Below, piece after piece: positions 4,110-27,822 of a stretch of 64,000 bases of DNA. The stretch spans positions 99,027 through 163,026 of IMG/VR virus record IMGVR_UViG_3300046171_000225; one strand, given 5' to 3'. The position numbers and the translations under genes are program-made. The stretch's first letter is position 1, and each line of letters opens with the position of its first letter. Source of the stretch: a virus. The notes under the pieces were generated by a model. The model ran no database searches, was not told where the DNA came from, and saw only the letters and a list, made by a program, of their open reading frames with translations.

Positions 4110-4838
4110 ATGCTCAAGGCGACTGGCGGAAACTCCAAGCTACGGAAGACCAGCAAGAAGGTGAAGGCATATCTTGAAGAGCATGGCTCTCTGGATGGTT
4201 TCGTTCCACGCAAGGGAGCCTACAGGGTCTTTTCCTTCAACATTCCCGCAGGCGGTTATGAATTGGATGGCAAGAAATATATTACTTGCCCCGGCGCTGG
4301 ACCGTGTCTCGATGTATGCTACGCGAGACAAGGCACTTATCTTTTCAAGGGCTCCAAGAAACTCCGTATTGAGAACCATCAGACTCTCTTGCGTCTGCGT
4401 CGCACCGGAGGCCACGAAGCTGTTGTAGAGGCCCTACAGGGCGTAGTAGATAGCCTTCCAAGGACAACTGCAGTCTTGCGCCTGCATGACAGCGGTGATT
4501 ACTTCAAGGTTTGGTATCTCTCTGCTTGGATTGAAGTAGCAAAGAATAACCCGGACATTCTTTTCTATTGCTACACAAAGAGTATTCCTTTCTTTACTGG
4601 CTTGGACGAGAATACTCCTTCTAACTTCCGAACAACAAAATCTTATGGTGGCAAGTTTGATCATCTGATCGAAGGATCTAACTCTAAAATCTTTGAGACA
4701 GAGGAAGATAGGATCGACGCAGGGTACATTGATGGTAACGATTCTGATATGCCAGCGATTGTTGGCGAAGAACAGATTGGGCTTGTCTATCATGGAGTCA
4801 AGAAGCCTACAGCAGAAAACTTTGCTGCCCTAGCTTGA
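4110..4838 (+). CDS. GP88-family protein (Cys-cluster, radical-SAM-like)
   Basis: GNSKL...FNIPAG...TCPGAGPCLDVCYA...RLHDSGDYF...FYCYTKS motifs. Confidence 0.8.
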   Translation: MLKATGGNSKLRKTSKKVKAYLEEHGSLDGFVPRKGAYRVFSFNIPAGGYELDGKKYITCPGAGPCLDVCYARQGTYLFKGSKKLRIENHQTLLRLRRTGGHEAVVEALQGVVDSLPRTTAVLRLHDSGDYFKVWYLSAWIEVAKNNPDILFYCYTKSIPFFTGLDENTPSNFRTTKSYGGKFDHLIEGSNSKIFETEEDRIDAGYIDGNDSDMPAIVGEEQIGLVYHGVKKPTAENFAALA

Positions 4839-15129: not shown

Positions 15130-15837
15130 GTGAAAAAATTATTTGAGTCATGGAGAGGCTACTTAACCGAGATGCCAAGAGAGTTTGGCCCTATATTTGA
15201 TCAGCCATATGGTGGAGCTGGTGGAGATGAGGTTGAGGAGTTTAAGAACTTAAGCCGAGAAGAGATTGAAAGAGAGAAAAAATTTGGCAACCTCTACTGC
15301 CAAGAAGATGTTTGTTGGATAGGCAAAAAGGGAAGAATGATCAAGGTTGATCTTGACTATGTCTATCCAATACAGGGAAATATCTTTTATCAAGACAAGC
15401 TTGATTATTTTAAAAATCTGTTTAGGACACAAGATGAAGTTTATCTGCATGCTCCTTACGGGATTTTATCTATTGTTGACCTAGATAGTATTAAGGAAAG
15501 CATAGAATACGAAATGTATAGCGGTGATCATAAAGCCCTAACCACTGGTGATGAAGAGCTTGATGTGTATATTCTCGATAAAGAAAAATATGTAGAGGAT
15601 AATGACCTTGAAGAAGAAGAGGTTCAACAACTCGAGCAAGATCTTCAATACGCTATAGCAAACAACGAGGGAGATTTAGGCGACACAATCTTTCAATCAA
15701 GGGACGGAAACCATAGAATATTTGGGGCTAGAGCTGCGGGTAAAAAATATATTTGGGCGATAATGTATCAAAATCAATACGATGATGTAATGGGTGAAAA
15801 GCCTTGGATGGCTGGATACAAGAAGTATCTAAAATGA
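15130..15837 (+). CDS. leader-bearing protein with a ParB/Srx-like domain
   Basis: N-terminal KKLFESWRGYLTE leader; RDGNHRIFGARAAG resembles the ParB DGxHR motif. Confidence 0.65.
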   Translation: MKKLFESWRGYLTEMPREFGPIFDQPYGGAGGDEVEEFKNLSREEIEREKKFGNLYCQEDVCWIGKKGRMIKVDLDYVYPIQGNIFYQDKLDYFKNLFRTQDEVYLHAPYGILSIVDLDSIKESIEYEMYSGDHKALTTGDEELDVYILDKEKYVEDNDLEEEEVQQLEQDLQYAIANNEGDLGDTIFQSRDGNHRIFGARAAGKKYIWAIMYQNQYDDVMGEKPWMAGYKKYLK

Positions 15838-16723: not shown

Positions 16724-17062
16724 ATGAGAATCAGGATTATAAAAGCCAAAAGACTTCTAGAAGGAGACGAAGATCCTAGAAGAGGTATGAAAGAAAGAAT
16801 GGAAAAAGCTGAAGAAGCTATTGAGATGTTCTTCGACCAGATCTTTGCACAAGCTCAAAGCGTAGAGGAGCATGATGCTCTTGTAGGACTTTTCTTTGAT
16901 CGCATGGCTATCTACTCTAGTCCACCAGAAGACGGTCTGTCTGATGAAGAGTTCGTAGATTTACTTTTCAAGAACACCAGAAAGATGAAAGAGCCTGCAG
17001 AAATGGATGAGCCGGAGCCTATGAGACCCCAGGGTGCTCAGGACAGAAGGGAAGAGGACTAA
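16724..17062 (+). CDS. hypothetical protein with MRIRII...LLE leader
   Basis: AGGAG RBS; second leader class. Confidence 0.6.
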   Translation: MRIRIIKAKRLLEGDEDPRRGMKERMEKAEEAIEMFFDQIFAQAQSVEEHDALVGLFFDRMAIYSSPPEDGLSDEEFVDLLFKNTRKMKEPAEMDEPEPMRPQGAQDRREED

Positions 17063-17748
17063 TGCAAAAATTATTTGAAGCCTGGAATAAGTTCCTTACA
17101 GAAGACGAAAAGGCTTACTTCCCTTGGCTCGCTGCTCTCCAAAATCTAGAAGATCCAGATCGTGAAGCTGTGGAAGAGGCTTTCCCTGAGTGGGAGCACT
17201 TGGGTGCTGGCTCTTACCGAGCTGTTATGTCTCCAAAGGGCGAAGAGGATTATATTATTAAGGTTATCCACGATAAGAAAGATGCTTACCAAAATGAGAT
17301 GGAGTACGAAGTATCAAAGGATTTTCCTACTCTTTTCCCTAAAGCATTCGCTCATCATCCTAAGTTTAACTGGATCGTCCTTGAGAAAGTCAAGGTTATT
17401 GAGAGTTTGAACATGGAGTTCCGTAGAGCGTTTGAAGCCGCTTTCCCAAAAGTGACAAAATACGCGTCGGACGCTGGGGTAAAGAACTTCTTCCTTGCTT
17501 TCAAGTCCGTACTCTATGCTGCAGCTCTTGGTGCTGACCCGGATGCAGAAGATGATATCTCACCAGCACAGATGGAAAACATTAAAAAGATAAGAGATTT
17601 CGGACTTGAGCAATCTGAGCCTTTCCGTGAACTTGTCAAGGCAATTGCAACATACAAGATCGATGTCTCTGATATTTCAGTTGGAAACATTGGAATCAAT
17701 GATGAAGGTAAATTTATTATTATCGACTCTTCAATTTGGGAGGCGTGA
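17062..17748 (+). CDS. leader-bearing protein kinase-like protein
   Basis: MQKLFEAWNKFLTE leader; LGAGSYRAV glycine loop, YIIK lysine, NEME, DISVGNIG catalytic loop, IIID. Confidence 0.75.
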   Translation: MQKLFEAWNKFLTEDEKAYFPWLAALQNLEDPDREAVEEAFPEWEHLGAGSYRAVMSPKGEEDYIIKVIHDKKDAYQNEMEYEVSKDFPTLFPKAFAHHPKFNWIVLEKVKVIESLNMEFRRAFEAAFPKVTKYASDAGVKNFFLAFKSVLYAAALGADPDAEDDISPAQMENIKKIRDFGLEQSEPFRELVKAIATYKIDVSDISVGNIGINDEGKFIIIDSSIWEA

Positions 17749-17961: not shown

Positions 17962-18300
17962 ATGAATCTGTACCTGTACAAAGCAAAATTAGATCGTGTG
18001 ATTGATGGAGACACTGTCGATGCTATGATCGACCTTGGATTCAACACTTGGGTACATAAAAGAATACGCTTGCTTGGCATAGATGCTCCCGAGACGCGCA
18101 CCAGGGACCTTGAAGAGAAGGCAGCAGGGCTACAGACCAAGGAACGCCTCACGAGCCTTCTAGAGGCCTCAGGAGGCGAGTTTGTCGTTGAATCTCATGG
18201 TGTTGGCAAGTACGGTCGCTGCCTTGGTACTCTATGGATTGGAGATCAAAATATAAATAATCTTCTTCTTTCGGAAGGGCTCGCGGAGGTCTATGAATGA
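17962..18300 (+). CDS. thermonuclease (SNase-like)
   Basis: RVIDGDTVD...RIRLLGIDAPETRT...GKYGRCLG. Confidence 0.9.
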   Translation: MNLYLYKAKLDRVIDGDTVDAMIDLGFNTWVHKRIRLLGIDAPETRTRDLEEKAAGLQTKERLTSLLEASGGEFVVESHGVGKYGRCLGTLWIGDQNINNLLLSEGLAEVYE

Positions 18301-19392: not shown

Positions 19393-20991
19393 ATGAAAGA
19401 CATACTGCAGAACTGGAATTCCTACACAGGAAAGGCCAAACTTACAGAATCGCAGAAAAACAAACTTCATGTCAAACACCAAGCACTAAGCAACAACGGC
19501 TCATTAGACTTGATATTTGAGTCTGGTTTTGACAATATGTTCGAATCAGTAGCTAAATGGCAACAATTTTATGAAGATGGCTGCCAAATTCTTGGTAAGA
19601 AGGCAGTATCAGAGGTTTTAAACTACAGGATATGTTTAGAGTCTTTAAAAGAAGCAAGAAAAAAAGACAAAAAACATACACCAATGAACAAGCCGTCTCA
19701 ACAAATTGCACGAATGTATGGCTTGCCGGACATACAGCAGAGCCAAACAGAACCAGGAGCACTAGAGTCTACAGTCGAGTATTTCGAGCGTGTCTTAAAG
19801 ATGGATCTCTCCCCTGAAGAAAGGGAAGGCCTTGAAGACCTTATGCTTGCGATAGATAATGAAGAAGAGGAAAAGAGTCAAGAGGAAGAAAGTGAAGAGG
19901 AAGACTCTTTCGATCCCTTTTCTAACTTAAAAGCTAGAGCTATCGATAAACAAGAAGTCCCTGGCTTCTATGACAGTCCAACAGAGGTTTGTTATTTACA
20001 ACTCTCTGATGAAAATTCAAAGCTTGAGAGTTTGGATATTGTTTCCATGTCTTTACCTGTTGGATATACATGTAAGTATGCTGGGTCTTGTAAAACTTTT
20101 GTAGAGCCATTAGGTAGAGATGAGAAAGGGGACTTCACAACAAAGCTGAGAACAACACCTAAAACGATAACTCACTGTTTCATGGGCGCGATAGAACAGC
20201 GCTCACCAGAATATAGAGCTAAAGTTTGGTATAATGCTTACTTATTAAAGGTGCCATCTGCCGTAAGGTATATGAACAAGGGACTTTTAGACGCTGTCGC
20301 GGCAGATCCAGCTGACATTTCCATGGAAGAGTTGATTATAAGAAGTATAAAAAATTATATGGAACAAAAAGCTAAAAAGATAAAACTGTTCAGAATACAT
20401 GCTGGTGGAGATTTCTTTTCCCAAGAGTATTTTGACGCTTGGTTAGGTGCTGTAAGACATTTTAAAAACATTATTTTCTATGCTTACACGACTTCTCTCC
20501 CTTACTGGTCCGCCCGTGTAAATGATATTCCGCCTAACCTTAGACTGGTCGCATCTGCCGAAACGGCATCTAAGCGAGCTTATAGAGAATCGATCAAAAG
20601 TGCTATTGATTCATTTAGAAAAGTTTACATTAAAGACACTCCTCGGTCAGCTGCTGAAGCCCGATTGCAAATTGACGTCAATGACTTTGAAGCTGTACTA
20701 GGGGAGGGAGATTTTGCATTGTTGCTTCACGGTGCTAGACAAGAAGCAGGAAAAACAGTTGAAATATCCTCTTCCTTTAAAAATCCGGATGGCACAAGGG
20801 ACAGTATGAAAGTTAATGCGTCTACTTTAGCAAAATTTAATTCCAAGTTAATTAAACTTAAGGCTAAACAGTTCCAGACTGACCCAGAAATAGCAGAACA
20901 ACAAATGAGAGATATCCTGATTGCAACAGCCAAATGGCACGAAGAAAGAATGGCTCCTCCAGCCCCTAAGGATGAAGAAGATGACAAATAA
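19393..20991 (+). CDS. leader-bearing protein with a C-terminal GP88-family domain
   Basis: MKDILQNWNSY leader; SMSLPVGYTCKYAGSC...C...FRIHAGGDFFSQEYFDAW...FYAYTTS...NLRLVAS parallels ORF 4110. Confidence 0.75.
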   Translation: MKDILQNWNSYTGKAKLTESQKNKLHVKHQALSNNGSLDLIFESGFDNMFESVAKWQQFYEDGCQILGKKAVSEVLNYRICLESLKEARKKDKKHTPMNKPSQQIARMYGLPDIQQSQTEPGALESTVEYFERVLKMDLSPEEREGLEDLMLAIDNEEEEKSQEEESEEEDSFDPFSNLKARAIDKQEVPGFYDSPTEVCYLQLSDENSKLESLDIVSMSLPVGYTCKYAGSCKTFVEPLGRDEKGDFTTKLRTTPKTITHCFMGAIEQRSPEYRAKVWYNAYLLKVPSAVRYMNKGLLDAVAADPADISMEELIIRSIKNYMEQKAKKIKLFRIHAGGDFFSQEYFDAWLGAVRHFKNIIFYAYTTSLPYWSARVNDIPPNLRLVASAETASKRAYRESIKSAIDSFRKVYIKDTPRSAAEARLQIDVNDFEAVLGEGDFALLLHGARQEAGKTVEISSSFKNPDGTRDSMKVNASTLAKFNSKLIKLKAKQFQTDPEIAEQQMRDILIATAKWHEERMAPPAPKDEEDDK

Positions 20992-22846
20992 GTTCCACAA
21001 TGCATGGCGGGGCTTTTTGAATGAACAGGAGGACAAGCCACCAGAAGAACTGCCTGACGGCGAGCTCACCAAAGATGAACTTGCCATATGGCAGAATGTT
21101 CTTGCTGATGTGTCGAAGTCTTTCTCTCTAAAAGAATCTTTTCTAGCAGAATACCTCATAGAACAGAGTCCTCCACAAAGGATCCTGGATCCTCCATTCC
21201 CAGAAGAAGAAGATTACGATCCACGTAACCCCCCTTTTGATCCACGGAGAACTCCCCCTCCGACAGGCATGCCGTATGACCCTCTGAGTGACCCTGAAGA
21301 GATTCACAAAAGTATGCAGACTACCAGAGCTCAGCAGAAAAAGGGCGAAGAAAAAGGCTTTCCAAAGGCTGTAGATAAAGACGATCCACAGGAAATGATC
21401 CCAGGTATTGGGTCTGTGATGCCGATTAAATTAAGCTCAAAATACTCAAAAGACAGTAGTTTTTGCCAAGTATTTCCTGGTATTAACAAATGGAGCCAGG
21501 AGAGTGCTGACAATTTCGGTGAGACCGTCCTATTTGTTTACGCCACAATGCAGACAACTTGGCCGAGAGTGGCAGTGTTCTTCCGTTTTTTGGTAGACTT
21601 TGTCAAGGAAAATCAGGCTAGTCCATCAAACTTTGAGCAGTTTGTCTATCGTCCCCCTAGAAACAATACTCAAACGGACTATAATGAATTTAAATATTAC
21701 CTTGGCAAGGATCTTTATGCAAAGTATTCTAGAAGGCTGAGACAGGCTGTCAAAGCAAGAGATGATGCTTCAAGCAGAGAATACCTAATTAATAAAGTGA
21801 AAGAACTACGTTCTCTCAAAGGCAGAGATGGAAGATCTCGTTATGAGACAAATAAAAGAATCAGAGCCAGAGTAGATCGTATGGAGCGTGTACTACGTGA
21901 TTCTCAAAGAATCCCTGAAATAGAATACGAAATCGAAGAGAAAGTCAATGAGCAGAGAAACCAGTTCAGAGACCAAGGTCTTCCAGACTACGAGACAGCC
22001 AGAGATAACTATGAAAACGCTTTAAGTAACCACAACGGCTACAGAGGAACCGAGCTAACTGCCCTGTTTAAAAAAATTCATGGAGTTTCCGAACTAACTC
22101 CTGAGCAGGAAGAATATGTTAGCACAGCCCGAGGGGTGATTGCTTACATGGCTGCTACTCCCGGAGCTAGATACTATGTACCTACTTGGAACAGTAGAGC
22201 AAGTATTTTTTCTAGTGTCTCCGAGCATTTGAAAAAGTACAATAAAGACAAAAACCCCAATGACCTATTAGATCTATTGGTTGATGTCGTAAAGATCCCA
22301 GGGATCGGCGTTGTGAAGGGTGGCTTATTAGTCCAGCTTCTAACTGGACAACTGGGGTGTATTGATAATGTCTGGCAAAAAATTCTTTATGCTCAGGACG
22401 AAGTCATTGCAGAAAGAGTAAAAAGAATAGTCCGCTCTAAGAAACCAGATGCAGAGAAGGCACTCAGAGATTATGCAAGTGCTTATATCACTCTTCTAGA
22501 AACACTGGAGAAAAGTTACTCTGTAGACTCTAAGGGCATATTTGAAGTATGGTCACAAATTACCACCCTTGCCAATAAAGGTGGTCCCAATAAGGGATAC
22601 AATATGAATCTAGAGTTTCTAAAAAAATCTACGGGTAAGCGAAGTAAAAAACTTAGCCCTGTTCAGATTGCTGTTAGAGGCGAATCAAATAGTGACACGT
22701 TCAAATTCTACACCATGGGTGGTGGGCCTAATGAACCACGCACTGCCAAAGAGCAAGACCCTAGAACCCTAGATTACCCACAGGCCGTAAAAGAAAGCAA
22801 AGTTCTAGAGACTTTCAAGAAGTGGAAGAAGTCTCAGTGGGACTAA
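20981..22846 (+). CDS. leader-bearing protein with a helix-hairpin-helix (DNA glycosylase-fold) domain
   Basis: Start MTNKFHNAWRGFLNE; LFVYATMQ and KIPGIGVVKGGLLVQLLTGQLGCID motifs. Confidence 0.6.
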   Translation: MTNKFHNAWRGFLNEQEDKPPEELPDGELTKDELAIWQNVLADVSKSFSLKESFLAEYLIEQSPPQRILDPPFPEEEDYDPRNPPFDPRRTPPPTGMPYDPLSDPEEIHKSMQTTRAQQKKGEEKGFPKAVDKDDPQEMIPGIGSVMPIKLSSKYSKDSSFCQVFPGINKWSQESADNFGETVLFVYATMQTTWPRVAVFFRFLVDFVKENQASPSNFEQFVYRPPRNNTQTDYNEFKYYLGKDLYAKYSRRLRQAVKARDDASSREYLINKVKELRSLKGRDGRSRYETNKRIRARVDRMERVLRDSQRIPEIEYEIEEKVNEQRNQFRDQGLPDYETARDNYENALSNHNGYRGTELTALFKKIHGVSELTPEQEEYVSTARGVIAYMAATPGARYYVPTWNSRASIFSSVSEHLKKYNKDKNPNDLLDLLVDVVKIPGIGVVKGGLLVQLLTGQLGCIDNVWQKILYAQDEVIAERVKRIVRSKKPDAEKALRDYASAYITLLETLEKSYSVDSKGIFEVWSQITTLANKGGPNKGYNMNLEFLKKSTGKRSKKLSPVQIAVRGESNSDTFKFYTMGGGPNEPRTAKEQDPRTLDYPQAVKESKVLETFKKWKKSQWD

Positions 22847-23243: not shown

Positions 23244-24266
23244 ATGAAAATCAAGATAATTCCAGCTGGAGCCCTCGAAGAAAAGAAGAAAAAGAAGGCT
23301 AAAAAGAAAGACGACCGCTGCACTCGTATAGCCAAAAGAAAATATAAGGTGTGGCCCTCTGCTTACGCCTCAGGAGCCGTGGTACAGTGTAGGCGAGGTA
23401 AGATATGGAAAGGACTCAAAGAGGGCCAGGAAGAGCCTCTAGAGGCAGCTGAGGAGGCTATCCTAGACACGTTGAAGGCAGAAGGTGGTGCCGCTGGTCT
23501 AGAACCCCTAGAGAAGGCTGTGGCAGACTTGAAATTGCCTGAGGATTTTAACATTGTAGAGTTTTTGAAGGATCTCGACACTGTTGGGCAGCATGAAGAT
23601 GGGGACTACTACTCTAAGCAGGGTCTAGAAGAGGGAGAGATCATTGATTTCCCAGCTAAGGAGCGCTCCGACGAGAACGTCCAGCTAGTAAACCAGTTAT
23701 TTAAAGATTTCAACCAGCTACAAGACGTAGATAATAAAGATGAAATCGGCATTGTTCTTACACTAAATTTGAGACAGCTTGAATCTGATCAGATGAGAGA
23801 AGTTGACCCTGACCTCAACCAAGTAGCTTTTGAGAAGATGTATGGCAGAGTGGTCGATGTTGTTGAGAAAGCGATACAAGATAACGTCGTAGAACTAAGA
23901 GAAGCCAAAAAAAAAAGAAAGAAGCGAAAAAAAGCAGGCACTGAGTCCTCAAAAGAGAAATCCCTAAGAGACTGGTTTGGTCGTAAGGGAGCAAAGGGCA
24001 AGAAAGGCGGCTGGGTTGATTGTAACGCTCCAGACGGCAAAGGTGGCTACAAAGCTTGTGGTCGTGAGAAAGGCGAGAAGCGTAAAAAGTATCCTGCCTG
24101 CAGACCAACCCCTGCTGCTTGCAAAGAGCGCGGAAAAGGCAAGACTTGGGGCAAAAAAGCTAAGAAAAAGAAGAAAATGAAGGAATCTGCTGAAGAATAT
24201 GTCTACGGAGTTAAAAATCCGGGTCGTATGGGCAACATTTATAAAATAAAGGTGGTTAAGTCATGA
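23244..24266 (+). CDS. modular basic/acidic putative internal virion protein
   Basis: MKIKII...LEE leader; KYKVWPSAYASG and LRDWFG...GGWVDC...KYPACRP modules separated by L-x-E sites. Confidence 0.65.
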   Translation: MKIKIIPAGALEEKKKKKAKKKDDRCTRIAKRKYKVWPSAYASGAVVQCRRGKIWKGLKEGQEEPLEAAEEAILDTLKAEGGAAGLEPLEKAVADLKLPEDFNIVEFLKDLDTVGQHEDGDYYSKQGLEEGEIIDFPAKERSDENVQLVNQLFKDFNQLQDVDNKDEIGIVLTLNLRQLESDQMREVDPDLNQVAFEKMYGRVVDVVEKAIQDNVVELREAKKKRKKRKKAGTESSKEKSLRDWFGRKGAKGKKGGWVDCNAPDGKGGYKACGREKGEKRKKYPACRPTPAACKERGKGKTWGKKAKKKKKMKESAEEYVYGVKNPGRMGNIYKIKVVKS

Positions 24267-24670
24267 TTATCCGTATTGTAAAAAAGGTTTTGGAGATGGC
24301 ATGCCCCCGTGCTACCCAAGATGTGGACCTAAACACAAAAAACAGAAACAGTACCAGAGAAAACCACATGTATGGGCCTCTAAATGTGAAAGAGCCCGGT
24401 GATTATTGGGAAAAACTGGCCAAAAAGTGGGATACAACTGAAAAAGCTGCAAAAAAGAGCACTTGTGGTGTCTGTGTAGCCTTCGACATCTCTCCACGTA
24501 TGGATGATTGTATGCCCGGTTCTGTTTCTGACGACAGTGGGCGTCTTGGTTACTGCTGGATGCATCATTTTAAGTGTCACTCTGCTCGATCCTGCGACAC
24601 ATGGGCTACTGGTGGCCCTATAACTAAAGATAAGGTATCTTATGAATGGCAGAGAAAAGGCGAAAAATGA
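24263..24670 (+). CDS. Cys-rich conserved phage protein
   Basis: MIIRIVKKVLE leader; CPRATQD...CGVCVAFD...GYCWMHHFKCHSARSCDTW. Confidence 0.65.
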   Translation: MIIRIVKKVLEMACPRATQDVDLNTKNRNSTRENHMYGPLNVKEPGDYWEKLAKKWDTTEKAAKKSTCGVCVAFDISPRMDDCMPGSVSDDSGRLGYCWMHHFKCHSARSCDTWATGGPITKDKVSYEWQRKGEK

Positions 24671-26385
24671 AAAAGATACTTGAGTCGTGGAGACTATACG
24701 AGAATCAAGCCCTAAAAGACGGGATTGAAAGAGAGTTTAGAATTATCCTCATTAACTGGGTTAGCAAGTATAGTCCGGGCTCATCTGAAGGTAAAAAACT
24801 TGAGGCATGGTTTAATACTAATAAAAAGTCGCAGTTTAATAAATATTCTTATGACCAATTATATGGAGCCATGGTCCAGTATATGGATCAAATTGCAGTT
24901 GTTCCTCTAATGGTGGGGGAAGAGCTTTTTCCTAGGCGTGTGGCGTATAGTAAAAACAGTCAGCAATTAGCTGCTTATGGTCCCCCACCGCTAAACCCTC
25001 CATACGATAAACAAAAAACTGGTATGTTTATAGTTAATGCCCAAAAATGGTCACAAAGTGATGAAGGGAGAAAGAAAGATATTATTAACCATGAAGCTGG
25101 CCATTGGCTAGATTGGTTTAAAGGGTTTATTGGTAGCAATACAGATACAAAATTTGCTTCCCAAAGTGGCACTGACCTGTCCTTACTTAAAACCATATTT
25201 TTGGACTCTCCCGTGGATGGGCACGGGTTAAATCAAGAACAGCTACAATATTTTGGTAGCAAAAAGGAACAACGTGCTTACTTGAAACAATATGTCGGCT
25301 CTAGTTTATCCAAAGGCGATATATTTAATATTTGTACTGCTCAGCGAGAAATAGTTGCCTCCGGTGGCTTTAAAAGCCTCACACCAGAGAAATATAAGGA
25401 TATATCATCCCGAGTCAATTTCAGACCCGAACTGATTCTTTATTTTAATTGTGGCAGAGCCAGTCAAGATCAAATTATTGATGCTGTTAAGCAGCTGGTC
25501 AAAGTAGATCAAGGGCAACGCACCATGGTTGCAGAGCGAGAAGCGTCAGTTGACCCTAAAATGAAGAAATATCTTGAGGACCATCCTTACATGGAGCCTG
25601 ACGGCATGCAGGAAGGTGAAACTCAAGATATCCCAGAGACGCAGCGTAAGATTTTATTAAGAATCAAAAAACAATTACAAAAATCTGCTGAAAAACATGC
25701 TCGACAAGCGAGACAGGCTACAGATATTGCAAAAGCATCACAAAAATCATCTGATTTGCATCGCGATCAAGTTGATCAGCTTGATGCAATGACCGAAGAC
25801 AACTTAGAAGAAAAAAGAGGAGCAACTCCTGCCTACTGTAGGTCCACTGCATGTAAAGATATGGGGTTCACACAGAAAGCCAGTTGTAAATCCCAAGGTA
25901 TTAAGGATTGTTACAGAGGCAAAAAGAAAAATGAGCAAGTTGAGCTTCAGGAGCGTTGCCAAAAGGGATATAAGACACACCCAACAAGAAAAACAAAGAT
26001 TATGTTTGGTAAACGGTATAGAAATTGTGTAAAAGCAGAGGAAGGCCGCATGTTAGAGGCCGACCCTAAGAAAGGAACGGGCAAAAAGCCTAAAGGTTCT
26101 GGTAGAAGACTATATACTGATGAAAATCCTAAAGATACAGTTTCTGTTGAGTTCTCTTCAGTAGCTGCTATCAAGCGTACACTTGCAAAAGCATCTTTCA
26201 AGGCCAAGTCTCACAAAAGACAGTCTCAGATTATTAACCTTATACACCAGAGAGTCAGGGCTGCATATAAAAATGCAAAGGATCCAAAAGTAAAAGCAAG
26301 GCTTAAAAGAGCTTATGAATATGCAGAAGAAAGAAAAGAAGCTTCAAAGAAAAAGACAGCAAGACTGAGGAAGGCTAAAAAATGA
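24667..26385 (+). CDS. leader-bearing modular protein: zincin domain plus basic modules
   Basis: MKKILESWRLY leader; NHEAGHWLD (HExxH) with a downstream EQRAY; LEE, LQE and MLE junctions; DPKKGTGKKPKGSGRRLYTDENP module. Confidence 0.65.
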   Translation: MKKILESWRLYENQALKDGIEREFRIILINWVSKYSPGSSEGKKLEAWFNTNKKSQFNKYSYDQLYGAMVQYMDQIAVVPLMVGEELFPRRVAYSKNSQQLAAYGPPPLNPPYDKQKTGMFIVNAQKWSQSDEGRKKDIINHEAGHWLDWFKGFIGSNTDTKFASQSGTDLSLLKTIFLDSPVDGHGLNQEQLQYFGSKKEQRAYLKQYVGSSLSKGDIFNICTAQREIVASGGFKSLTPEKYKDISSRVNFRPELILYFNCGRASQDQIIDAVKQLVKVDQGQRTMVAEREASVDPKMKKYLEDHPYMEPDGMQEGETQDIPETQRKILLRIKKQLQKSAEKHARQARQATDIAKASQKSSDLHRDQVDQLDAMTEDNLEEKRGATPAYCRSTACKDMGFTQKASCKSQGIKDCYRGKKKNEQVELQERCQKGYKTHPTRKTKIMFGKRYRNCVKAEEGRMLEADPKKGTGKKPKGSGRRLYTDENPKDTVSVEFSSVAAIKRTLAKASFKAKSHKRQSQIINLIHQRVRAAYKNAKDPKVKARLKRAYEYAEERKEASKKKTARLRKAKK

Positions 26386-26978: not shown

Positions 26979-27250
26979 TGGATTTTCCCTTCTCTGAAAA
27001 GAAGGTCGGAAATAAACTATTCCTCCGAGAGTTTAGAGAAGATGTAGACTCTGAGGAATTGATTTGGCATCAAGACAAAGAAGACAGAAAGGTCAAGATT
27101 ATTGAAGCTAACGGATGGAAGTTACAAATGGATAATGAACTTCCTGTCTTGTTAGAAAACGGCTCTACTTACTATATACCTGCCTACCATTTTCATCGAG
27201 TAATAAAGGGTAACGGCAGACTACTTATAGAAGTGGAGAAAAGCCCATGA
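26975..27250 (+). CDS. small cupin-like phage protein
   Basis: ELIWHQDKEDR...WKLQMDNELP...FHRVIKG. Confidence 0.6.
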   Translation: MMDFPFSEKKVGNKLFLREFREDVDSEELIWHQDKEDRKVKIIEANGWKLQMDNELPVLLENGSTYYIPAYHFHRVIKGNGRLLIEVEKSP

Positions 27251-27822
27251 AATCACTTCTAGAAAATTGGAACAACTTCCTTACTGAACAAAAATCTTTT
27301 ACAGATAAGGAAAAGATAGCACTTGTTATATTTGGAGAAGCTCGTGGAGAGTCGAACGCTGGAAAGCGAGCTGTTTTGCATGTTGCTATGAATAGGGCTA
27401 AACACGAGGGCAAGTCTGTACTAGAGGTTATGCAAGAGCCGGGTCAATTTTCAATTTTAAATGATAATACTTTTGCTGATATATACAAAGAAGCACAATC
27501 GGGCGATATACCAAAAAAGAAATATGCAGAGAGTCTTGAAATTGTAAGTAATCCTGGAAAAGATATTACAGGAGGATCGACTCATTACCTAACCACAGAA
27601 CTCTACTATGGCAAAAGAAAATGGTGGGCTGACTATGACAAGAATATATGCTGGGTACCCATGATAGAAATAGGAAAGCATGTATTTGGAATTGAGACGG
27701 GCACATACCCGCCACCAGATGGACTTAAATGTGTATATAGCATCGAAAAAGGCAAAAGAAAGTACAATATGTCCACGGTCCCAGCAAGGCACGATTTCGG
27801 TCAGCATCCCAAGCTACCCTAA
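27247..27822 (+). CDS. leader-bearing SleB/Hydrolase_2 cell wall hydrolase
   Basis: MKSLLENWNNFLTE leader; IALVIFGEARGES...AV..V.MNR...QFS...GSTHY...IGKHVF. Confidence 0.85.
   Translation: MKSLLENWNNFLTEQKSFTDKEKIALVIFGEARGESNAGKRAVLHVAMNRAKHEGKSVLEVMQEPGQFSILNDNTFADIYKEAQSGDIPKKKYAESLEIVSNPGKDITGGSTHYLTTELYYGKRKWWADYDKNICWVPMIEIGKHVFGIETGTYPPPDGLKCVYSIEKGKRKYNMSTVPARHDFGQHPKLP

What the first reader, a model, noticed from the sequence alone, without database searches (positions are those of the whole stretch)
19393..22846. Adjacent leader-tagged GP88-domain and HhH-fold proteins: a possible packaged DNA modification or repair pair
Seen: two overlapping genes (ATG 20981, upstream stop 20991), both with the W-leader. 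The first has a GP88 domain (TCKYAGSC...C, RIHAGGDFF, FYAYT). The second has FVYATMQ and an HhH-like IPGIGVVKGGLLVQLLTGQLGCID motif at about 22290-22370. Established: HhH-GPD-fold enzymes include DNA glycosylases and phage base-hypermodification enzymes. Inference: a Cys-cluster radical-SAM-like enzyme and an HhH enzyme may be delivered with the genome to install, remove or repair a base modification, or to attack host DNA.
Basis: partly seen in the sequence, partly recalled or inferred. Interest (0 to 1): 0.75.

Follow-up and report, generated by a model that had tools for sequence, protein, structure and literature searches.

The report
Leader-tagged phage glycosylase-like and GP88 proteins
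Two neighbouring genes of an uncultured T4-like marine phage carry a probable "pack-me-into-the-capsid" leader; one is a very divergent DNA-glycosylase-fold protein and the other a cysteine-bearing GP88 enzyme of unknown chemistry, but they are two separate cargo proteins, not a conserved working pair.

Summary
Genes 19393-20991 (532 aa) and 20981-22846 (621 aa) overlap by 11 nt, and both start with the W-leader found on nine ORFs of this 163-kb T4-like phage. The phage encodes a gp21-type prohead protease.

- **Gene A:** a true Pfam GP88 domain (82 bits). Its model is a (beta/alpha)6 partial barrel with three conserved Cys. Its best fold matches are radical-SAM cores, but only at Z 5-6.5, which is background level. 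CX3CX2C is absent, and there is no Pfam or profile signal. "Radical-SAM-like" stays a weak lead.
- **Gene B:** no Pfam, PHROG or NCBIfam hit, but a confident model (pLDDT 91). Its top 20 structural matches are all HhH-GPD glycosylases (Ogg Tm1821, Z 11.7). It has an HhH hairpin and an invariant Asp, and a roughly 185-aa helical insertion. A leaderless 200-aa relative sits in the replication module of a T7-like phage.
- **Pairing:** not supported. The two families are adjacent only in one near-identical relative. Three complete gene-B genomes lack GP88, and 80 viral GP88 loci lack gene B within 10 kb.

My reading: two independent capsid-targeted cargo enzymes. The same stretch was noted elsewhere in this scan, on this genome only, not on other DNA.

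The parts
19393..20991 (+). Gene A: leader-tagged GP88-domain protein, 532 aa
   Evidence: ORF. Pfam GP88 82.3 bits. Orthologues P0007-P0013 have the same leader and N-terminal region.
19393..19449 (+). Leader of gene A (MKDILQNWNSYTGKAKLTE). The conserved L-x-E lies at res 17-19, displaced relative to the other leaders.
   Evidence: Orthologues keep ...NW..[FY].GK..L[NS]E.
20038..20742 (+). GP88 domain (res 216-450), modelled as a (beta/alpha)6 partial barrel
   Evidence: Model m47c202a55750 has pLDDT 87.2. Fold matches.
20071..20178 (+). Conserved Cys triad C227-x5-C233-x28-C262, placed after beta-1, with a beta-hairpin inserted between Cys2 and Cys3
   Evidence: Nearly invariant C43/C49/C78 of alignment A3. 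Positions; secondary structure.
20981..20991 (+). 11-nt overlap of gene A's stop with gene B's start (ATGACAAATAA)
20981..22846 (+). Gene B: leader-tagged HhH-GPD-fold protein, 621 aa
20981..21025 (+). Leader of gene B (MTNKFHNAWRGFLNE), ending in an L-x-E motif
   Evidence: At least 13 of 40 N-terminally complete family representatives match the W-leader pattern.
21428..21625 (+). N-terminal part of the glycosylase-like core (SFCQVFPGIN...FVYATMQTTW). It aligns with the 'LLSAQ' helix of EndoIII.
21626..22180 (+). Lineage-specific, basic, helical insertion of about 185 aa (res about 216-400) that splits the core
   Evidence: Short relatives match two stretches, about 150-213 and about 400-540 of the query. 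Long helices at pLDDT >95. pI 9.35.
22181..22600 (+). C-terminal part of the core, including the HhH hairpin
22295..22366 (+). HhH-GPD signature IPGIGVVKGGLLVQLLTGQLGCID, with invariant K446, G448, Q452, G456, G459, C460 and D462
4110..4838 (+). Second, leaderless GP88 paralogue (242 aa) with a compact Cys triad Cx5Cx3C
   Evidence: HMM hit. Pfam GP88 122.6 bits. Sequence.

Best explanation
The two genes are neighbouring but independent members of a cluster of about 13 kb of 'cargo' genes in a T4-like phage.

Inferred delivery route: each product starts with a short amphipathic W-leader. By analogy with the capsid-targeting sequences of the T4 internal proteins, this leader docks the protein into the prohead core and is then cut off after an L/I-x-E site by the phage's gp21-type protease. 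The mature proteins would then travel in the head and enter the host with the DNA.

Gene B is a very divergent member of the HhH-GPD DNA-glycosylase superfamily and is closest to Ogg2/EndoIII-type enzymes. It has an HhH hairpin, an invariant Asp and no Fe-S loop, and it is split by a basic helical insertion. I infer that it binds DNA and excises a damaged or modified base at the very start of infection. The substrate is unknown; oxidised bases of the phage's own genome are my first guess.

Gene A is a GP88 enzyme: a (beta/alpha)6 partial barrel with a three-Cys metal or Fe-S site at the top of the barrel. Its chemistry is unknown.

Shown here: the gene structures, the leaders, GP88 membership, the HhH-GPD fold, the presence of the protease gene and the lack of co-occurrence. 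Inferred: packaging, cleavage, catalysis and substrate.
For: - Leader and protease: the leader sits on 9 ORFs and is conserved as a peptide, not as DNA. Peptidase_S77 scores 118 bits at genome 34489-34914. T4 CTS and L/I-X-E cleavage are described in PMC9026906 and PMC3012670.
- Other cargo: another leader-tagged protein is a Hydrolase_2 cell-wall hydrolase, a typical entry enzyme.
- Leader tracks lineage: in W-type loci the neighbouring ORFs carry W-leaders (mean 2.7) and never KKILKE-type leaders. In loci where GP88 has an MKNLIKKILKE-type N-terminus the neighbours share that type (mean 1.6). The 61 short leaderless GP88 loci have almost none of either.
- Gene B fold: model pLDDT 91 and pTM 0.88. 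The top 20 VIA matches are all HhH-GPD enzymes: 3n0u Z 11.7 with 198 of 209 residues aligned at rmsd 3.7, EndoIII-3 Z 9.2, hOGG1 Z 8.5.
- Gene B sequence signal: profile comparison with Nth/MutY gives P 0.0044 and with Ogg-HhH P 0.011, each collinear over about 190 columns with the HhH motifs aligned. Negative controls gave P 0.27-0.59. The nearest named ESM-Atlas clusters are viral, with 10-21% of members carrying PF22175 Ogg-HhH.
- Gene B residues and context: K446 and D462 are invariant. The leaderless 200-aa member ParKuw1 gp36 (HMM E 2e-29) lies between the DnaB-like helicase and the ligase and polymerase genes.
- Gene A: Pfam GP88; Cys triad and invariant R334/H336/D340.
- Independence of the two families.
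Against: - No virion proteomics exists, so packaging and cleavage are by analogy only.
- The leaders of A and B are the most divergent of the set. A lacks the E at the usual position.
- Gene B misses both Pfam HhH-GPD models even at E<=10, and Foldseek gives only E about 1.
- The invariant Lys lies one residue after the position of the catalytic Lys of EndoIII/Ogg, and hhalign does not place D462 exactly on D138. Catalysis is therefore unproven.
- The aligner's own note warns that Z below about 13 can be a common arrangement for helical proteins.
- An Fe-S enzyme stored in an oxic virion would be surprising.
Confidence: 0.6

Rival explanations
1. One reading: GP88 (a radical-SAM-like enzyme) and the HhH protein form a functional two-enzyme system, co-delivered to install, remove or repair one base modification.
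For: The genes overlap by 11 nt and both are tagged. The same adjacency is seen in L094. The best fold matches of GP88 include nucleic-acid radical-SAM enzymes: TYW1, spore photoproduct lyase, RlmN and QueE.
Against: L094 is a near-identical syntenic relative, so it is not independent evidence. In L098, L105/L106 and L120 the tagged GP88 has other neighbours. Eighty viral GP88 loci have no gene B within 10 kb. Three complete gene-B genomes have no GP88, with a working positive control. Five large GP88 genome fragments have no gene B. No neighbour family occurs in more than 15 of 160 GP88 loci.
Confidence: 0.1
2. The proteins are not packaged. The shared N-terminal peptide serves another purpose, such as common regulation, localisation or assembly in the infected cell, and both enzymes act in the cytoplasm during replication, as ordinary phage DNA-metabolism enzymes do.
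For: Leaderless members of both families exist in replication or early regions: ParKuw1 gp36 and the window 4110-4838 paralogue. There are no proteomic data. No T4-type late promoter TATAAATA was enriched: 5 matches against 3.2 expected.
Against: The leader sits exactly at the N-terminus of unrelated proteins and ends in L/I-x-E. The genome has the matching protease. The leader type changes with phage lineage while the cargo domain stays the same. That is the behaviour described for T4 CTS (PMC9026906).
Confidence: 0.2
3. Gene B is a non-catalytic internal DNA-binding protein. The HhH-GPD scaffold and the basic coiled-coil insertion only hold or organise DNA in the head or at ejection, like the basic T4 internal proteins.
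For: The insertion and the C-terminal parts are basic, pI 9.1-9.8. The Lys is not at the canonical catalytic position. The position three residues after the Asp is Asn in most short members but Trp in this lineage.
Against: D462, K446 and the Gly residues of the loop are invariant across very divergent members. The minimal 200-aa form, which has no basic insertion, sits among replication enzymes. This pattern fits an enzyme better than a packing protein.
Confidence: 0.12

Closest known systems
Ogg2/AGOG-type and EndoIII-type HhH-GPD DNA glycosylases (e.g. Thermotoga maritima Tm1821, PDB 3N0U; E. coli Nth)
   Same: The same two-domain all-helical fold (Z 11.7, 198 of 209 residues aligned). The same h-P-G-h-G hairpin, followed by a Gly-rich loop and a conserved Asp. 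The 'SxQ' helix is present near the N-terminus, and a Trp-bearing C-terminal helix resembles that of Ogg2.
   Different: It falls below every Pfam threshold. The K-to-D spacing is 16 rather than 18-19, and the Lys is shifted by one residue. It has no Fe-S loop (only 2 Cys). A helical insertion of about 185 aa splits the core, and there is an acidic Pro-rich N-terminal linker plus a leader. It is phage-encoded and probably virion-borne.
T4 internal proteins IPI/IPII/IPIII and Alt (CTS-targeted, gp21-processed capsid cargo)
   Same: Unrelated proteins share a short N-terminal peptide ending in L/I-x-E. The phage has a gp21-type protease. The cargo set differs between related phages.
   Different: The leader sequence (MKxLLExWxxFLxE) is unrelated to T4's MKTYQEFIAE. 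The cargoes are large enzymes of 170-620 aa, not small basic proteins. No experimental evidence of packaging exists.
Pfam GP88 (PF17338), named after the mycobacteriophage gene product 88
   Same: Gene A's residues 216-450 match the model well above its cut-off. The Cys triad and the RIHxxGDFF and FYAYT motifs are shared.
   Different: Most members are stand-alone proteins of 230-270 aa. This one has a 215-aa N-terminal extension made of the leader, a conserved region, an acidic linker and an FDPF motif.
Radical-SAM core enzymes (TYW1, spore photoproduct lyase, QueE, NifB, PFL-AE)
   Same: A (beta/alpha)6 partial barrel, with Cys residues placed after beta-1 and a G-G-D motif after beta-2, where radical-SAM enzymes have GGE. 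These enzymes fill the top 17-18 ranks of two fold searches.
   Different: There is no CX3CX2C motif; the triad is Cx5Cx28C here and Cx5Cx3C in the paralogue. Z is only 5-6.5 at rmsd 4.5-6.9 A. Pfam Radical_SAM gives no hit, and the profile comparison with QueE is null.

Membership tests
HhH-GPD DNA glycosylase superfamily | Two-domain all-alpha fold containing the helix-hairpin-helix | tested here: met
   Model pLDDT 91. The top 20 of 48,161 chains are all HhH-GPD enzymes; the best is 3n0u at Z 11.7, rmsd 3.7, 198 of 209 residues aligned.
HhH-GPD DNA glycosylase superfamily | Hairpin motif h-P-G-h-G followed by a Gly/Pro-rich loop and a conserved Asp | tested here: met
   IPGIGVVKGG...GQLGCID at res 439-462. 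G448, G456, G459 and D462 are invariant in A4. The spacing is 1-2 residues shorter than in Nth or Ogg.
HhH-GPD DNA glycosylase superfamily | Match to the curated sequence models (Pfam PF00730 HhH-GPD, PF22175 Ogg-HhH) | tested here: not met
   No hit at E<=1 in hmmscan and none at E<=10 in six-frame genome searches. One of 35 relatives reaches E 0.12 for PF22175. Profile-profile P is 0.004-0.011.
HhH-GPD DNA glycosylase superfamily | Catalytic Lys of bifunctional members at the start of the second HhH helix | tested here: inconclusive
   K446 is invariant but aligns one residue after Nth K120 and the Ogg2 Lys.
HhH-GPD DNA glycosylase superfamily | Base-excision activity on DNA | not testable with these tools
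   Needs biochemistry.
EndoIII/MutY subgroup | C-terminal four-Cys [4Fe-4S] cluster loop | tested here: not met
   Gene B has only two Cys, C162 and C460.
Pfam GP88 (PF17338) | Score above the curated cut-off | tested here: met
   82.3 bits against a cut-off of 24.4; 81.8 bits in the genome search.
Radical SAM superfamily | CX3CX2C (or a close variant) cluster motif after beta-1 | tested here: not met
   C227-x5-C233-x28-C262 in gene A and Cx5Cx3C in the paralogue.
Radical SAM superfamily | Partial (beta/alpha)6 TIM barrel resembling solved radical-SAM cores | tested here: inconclusive
   Six parallel strands. Radical-SAM enzymes fill ranks 1-17, but at Z 5.0-6.5, below the aligner's typical background of 7-8.
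Radical SAM superfamily | Sequence-profile relationship (Pfam PF04055; a QueE profile) | tested here: not met
   No hit on either GP88 gene at E<=10. hhalign against 21 QueE sequences gives P 0.41, equal to the negative controls.
T4-type CTS-targeted capsid cargo | Short N-terminal peptide shared by unrelated proteins and ending in an L/I-x-E site | tested here: met
   Nine ORFs. B has FLNE at res 12-15. A has KLTE at res 16-19, and this site is conserved in its orthologues.
T4-type CTS-targeted capsid cargo | gp21-type prohead protease encoded by the phage | tested here: met
   Peptidase_S77, 118 bits, E 3.1e-35, at genome 34489-34914.
T4-type CTS-targeted capsid cargo | Presence of the processed protein in virions | not testable with these tools
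   Uncultured phage; no proteome available.

The most novel reading that the evidence does not exclude
A T4-like marine phage pre-loads its capsid with a DNA base-excision enzyme, and possibly with a metal or Fe-S enzyme that acts on nucleic acid. Damaged or host-marked bases would then be processed on the incoming genome, or on host DNA, before any phage gene is expressed. This would be a phage counterpart of the repair enzymes packaged by giant eukaryotic viruses.
Probability: 0.3. Interest if true: 0.75.

Novelty: new variant of a known kind. Interest (0 to 1): 0.55.

Why it matters
Known capsid-delivered phage proteins are mostly small anti-restriction proteins, RNA polymerases, ADP-ribosyltransferases and wall hydrolases. 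I found no paper in the library describing a virion-borne HhH-GPD glycosylase in a phage. If confirmed, such an enzyme would add DNA repair or DNA editing at entry to the list of phage take-over tools, and it would be relevant to phage survival under sunlight. Gene B also defines a phage protein family of at least 69 clusters at 50% identity that is absent from Pfam, PHROGs and NCBIfam, and it can now be annotated as HhH-GPD-like. The result also corrects an attractive but unsupported "two-enzyme system" reading.

Tried and rejected
- **Phage database searches.** BLAST of the region (DNA) and of gene B (protein) against 50,697 phage records found no match.
- **PDB sequence searches.** Single proteins and the family profile gave nothing.
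- **Family libraries for gene B.** Pfam, PHROGs and NCBIfam gave nothing for gene B or its relatives.
- **Foldseek.** Against PDB, gene B gave only E about 1, although glycosylases were enriched. GP88 gave only generic TIM barrels at E about 0.01. BFVD gave nothing useful for gene B.
- **hhalign, single sequence.** The family profile against E. coli Nth alone failed. It needed a profile of 30 Nth/MutY sequences, which I collected from genomes.
- **GP88 against QueE.** The profile comparison was null.
- **Pfam models on the genome.** Radical_SAM, HhH-GPD and Ogg-HhH gave no hits on these genes.
- **The search for related loci.** The narrower alignment found only 4 viral loci.
- The contigs of most gene-B homologues could therefore not be inspected, and the co-occurrence test rests on fewer gene-B genomes than I wanted.
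- **Late promoter.** The T4 late-promoter motif TATAAATA is not enriched.
- **GP88 neighbour clustering.** No conserved partner emerged.
- **Literature.** A search for GP88/PF17338 returned only unrelated uses of the name.
Full report
**Setting.** The window is bases 99027-163026 of a 163,026-bp IMG/VR virus record estimated 90% complete. All long ORFs lie on the + strand. There are four tRNA genes, baseplate-like genes at the far end and a T4-type prohead protease gene (Peptidase_S77, 118 bits, genome 34489-34914). It is an uncultured T4-like myophage with about 41% G+C.

**Observation.** Gene A (19393-20991, 532 aa) and gene B (20981-22846, 621 aa) overlap by 11 nt. Gene A ends ...GATGACAAATAA, and gene B starts at the ATG inside that string, 8 nt after an AAGGA. 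Orthologues start at the same Met.

A loose pattern for the leader ([LIFVM]x[EQN..]xW[RNK]x[FY..]) matches the extreme N-terminus of nine long + strand ORFs. One is at genome 71923. Eight are in the window, at 15130, 15863, 17062, 19393, 20981, 24667, 27247 and 28096. Only six scattered matches occur elsewhere in six frames of 163 kb. Across the nine leaders, residues that are identical share a codon only 47% of the time, so it is the peptide that is conserved, not a DNA repeat. The leaders of A (KDILQNWNSYTGK...KLTE) and B (NKFHNAWRGFLNE) are the two most divergent.

**The leader as a capsid-targeting sequence (inference).** In T4, unrelated internal proteins share a roughly 10-residue N-terminal capsid-targeting sequence. 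It docks them into the scaffolding core and is removed by gp21, which cuts after Glu in L/I-X-E (PMC9026906; PMC3012670). Here the leaders end in [LV]-x-E: YLTE, YVGE, FLTE, FLNE, HVTE. In gene A and all of its tagged orthologues the site is displaced a few residues downstream (KLTE, PLNE, VLNE, LLSE). One tagged neighbour is a Hydrolase_2 cell-wall hydrolase, a plausible entry enzyme.

Further support comes from other phages. Among 160 GP88 loci, GP88 proteins with a W-leader have neighbours with W-leaders (mean 2.7) and none of another type. GP88 proteins that begin MKNLIKKILKE... have neighbours with that leader (mean 1.6). The 61 short, leaderless GP88 genes have almost none of either. So the cargo domain stays the same while the leader tracks the phage lineage, as expected of a targeting signal. 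Packaging itself is not shown.

**Gene B.** It has no match in Pfam, PHROGs, NCBIfam, PDB sequences or 50,697 phage records.
- The big protein libraries hold three close relatives (41-53% identity) and 69 cluster representatives at E<=1e-3.
- Most relatives are 300-400 aa and match the query in two blocks, about residues 150-213 and 400-540. The window's protein therefore carries a lineage-specific insertion of about 185 aa.
- At least 13 of 40 N-terminally complete relatives carry the W-leader, and my pattern missed several more. Many others begin with other amphipathic ...L-L-x-E peptides.
- AlphaFold2 on a 68-sequence alignment gave a confident all-helical model: pLDDT 91.0, pTM 0.88.
- Foldseek against PDB gave only E about 1, but with a run of MutY, EndoIII, Ogg and AlkA entries.
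- The Foldseek-independent search of 48,161 chains put HhH-GPD enzymes in all of the first 20 ranks: Tm1821 Ogg at Z 11.7 (198 of 209 residues, rmsd 3.7), EndoIII-3 at 9.2, hOGG1 at 8.5, then Mag1, MutY, AlkA, MagIII and the queuine-salvage hydrolase DUF2419. Unrelated helical fragments follow at Z 5.7 or less.

I then collected 30 Nth/MutY and 6 Ogg-HhH sequences from bacterial genomes. The profile of the gene-B family aligns with them collinearly over about 190 columns, at P 0.0044 and 0.011. The 'FVxATQQ' helix falls on the 'LLSAQ' helix, and hairpin falls on hairpin. Four negative-control comparisons gave P 0.27-0.59. The positive control, Nth/MutY against Ogg, gave 7.6e-7. The ESM Atlas independently places a short family member next to viral clusters in which 10-21% of members carry PF22175 Ogg-HhH.

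The signature IPGIGVVKGG-LLVQLLTGQLGCID (res 439-462) has invariant K446, G448, Q452, G456, G459, C460 and D462. Two caveats apply:
- The Lys lies one residue after the catalytic Lys of Nth or Ogg2.
- The K-D spacing is 16 rather than 18-19, and hhalign does not put D462 exactly on D138.

There are only two Cys, so there is no EndoIII-type cluster. A leaderless 200-aa member, gp36 of the T7-like Paracoccus phage ParKuw1 (family HMM E 2.2e-29), lies between the DnaB-like helicase and the nucleoside deoxyribosyltransferase, ligase and DNA polymerase genes. That context fits a DNA enzyme. I conclude that gene B has the HhH-GPD fold and probably works as a DNA glycosylase. It is too divergent to be filed under any curated family model.

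**Gene A.** Residues 216-450 are a true GP88 domain.
- The family is common in phages: 483 viral and at least 438 metagenomic confirmed matches, and 219 cultured phage records, mostly mycobacteriophages.
- Some members are fused to the Phage_L5_gp82 domain.
- Conserved features are the Cys triad (C227, C233, C262), R334-x-H336-x-x-G339-D340-F-F, FYAYT366, N382, S388 and H446-G-x-Q450.
- The model (pLDDT 87.2) has six parallel strands alternating with helices. The first two Cys lie in the loop after beta-1, and a beta-hairpin separates them from the third.
- The phage's second, leaderless GP88 (window 4110-4838; 122.6 bits) lacks the hairpin and has Cx5Cx3C.

In two fold searches, radical-SAM enzymes fill the first 17-18 ranks: TYW1, spore photoproduct lyase, RlmN, NifB, QueE, PFL-AE and viperin. 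They score only Z 5.0-6.5 at rmsd 4.5-6.9 A. Generic TIM barrels follow at 4.5 or less, and the tool's own background for unmatched models is 7-8. CX3CX2C is absent, Pfam Radical_SAM does not hit either GP88 gene at E<=10, and the profile comparison with QueE is null (P 0.41). "Radical-SAM-like" is therefore a lead and not a finding. A Cys3 metal site in a partial barrel is what can be said.

The 215-residue N-terminal extension (leader, conserved region, acidic linker, FDPF motif) is shared by the tagged orthologues.

**Are they a pair?**
- The only other contig with the two genes adjacent, L094, is a near-identical syntenic relative.
- In more distant relatives the tagged GP88 sits in the same kind of leader-gene cluster but next to other genes (L098, L105/L106, L120).
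- A tagged gene-B homologue sits in such a cluster without GP88 in the 3 kb of contig held upstream of it (L004).
- None of 80 viral GP88 loci has a gene-B relative within 10 kb.
- Three complete phage genomes with a gene-B relative have no GP88 (positive control).
- Five large GP88-bearing genome fragments have no gene B.
- No neighbour family recurs in more than 15 of 160 GP88 loci.

The adjacency reflects membership in a shuffled cargo cluster.

**Limits.** Packaging, cleavage, catalysis and substrate are all inferred.

**Earlier notes of this scan.** Notes on the same genome describe the leader system and the two GP88 genes. They agree with what I found. Nothing was found on other DNA.

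**Verdict.** Gene B is a new, uncatalogued, leader-tagged branch of the HhH-GPD superfamily. Gene A is a tagged GP88 of unknown chemistry. The two-enzyme base-modification model is unlikely. Interest is moderate. It rests on the prospect of a capsid-delivered DNA glycosylase, which proteomics and a simple enzyme assay could test.

Noticed in passing
window 4110-4838: A second, leaderless GP88 paralogue (242 aa) lies in the early or tRNA-proximal region. Its three Cys are compact (Cx5Cx3C), without the beta-hairpin found in most GP88 proteins.
   Followed up: partly
window 17962-18300: A staphylococcal-nuclease (SNase) homologue without a leader sits inside the leader-gene cluster (Pfam E 1.4e-13). 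A related ORF also recurs near GP88 in 9 of 160 other loci.
   Followed up: no
window 27247-27822: A leader-tagged Hydrolase_2 (SleB-type) cell-wall hydrolase, a plausible virion-borne entry enzyme.
   Followed up: no
window 23244-24266: This protein carries the motif KVWPSAYASGAxVxCR (phrog_727). Its family is the most frequent neighbour of GP88 in other phages, though in only 15 of 160 loci.
   Followed up: partly
window 24263-24670; L004:2581-3006; L105:9512-10000; L120:11166-11606: A small protein with the motif CPxATQDLxLNTKNRN recurs in the leader-gene clusters of several phages. In some of them it is itself tagged.
   Followed up: no
L027, L031, L020, L150, L158, L161, L165 (GP88 loci of other phages): A different shared N-terminal peptide (MKNLIKKILKE...) marks GP88 and its neighbouring genes in another phage lineage. 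This suggests lineage-specific capsid-targeting leaders.
   Followed up: partly
L175:5980-6582 (Paracoccus phage ParKuw1, ParaKuw1_00036): This gene is annotated as a hypothetical protein. It is a minimal 200-aa member of the gene-B HhH-GPD-like family and lies in the replication module.
   Followed up: yes
window 17062-17748: A leader-tagged protein with weak matches to phage protein-kinase PHROGs (phrog_4301 at E 3e-8; kinase families at E about 0.006-0.01).
   Followed up: no
window 24667-26385: A leader-tagged 572-aa protein containing an HEAGH (HExxH-type) motif. It has no Pfam or PHROG match and may be a metalloprotease.
   Followed up: no
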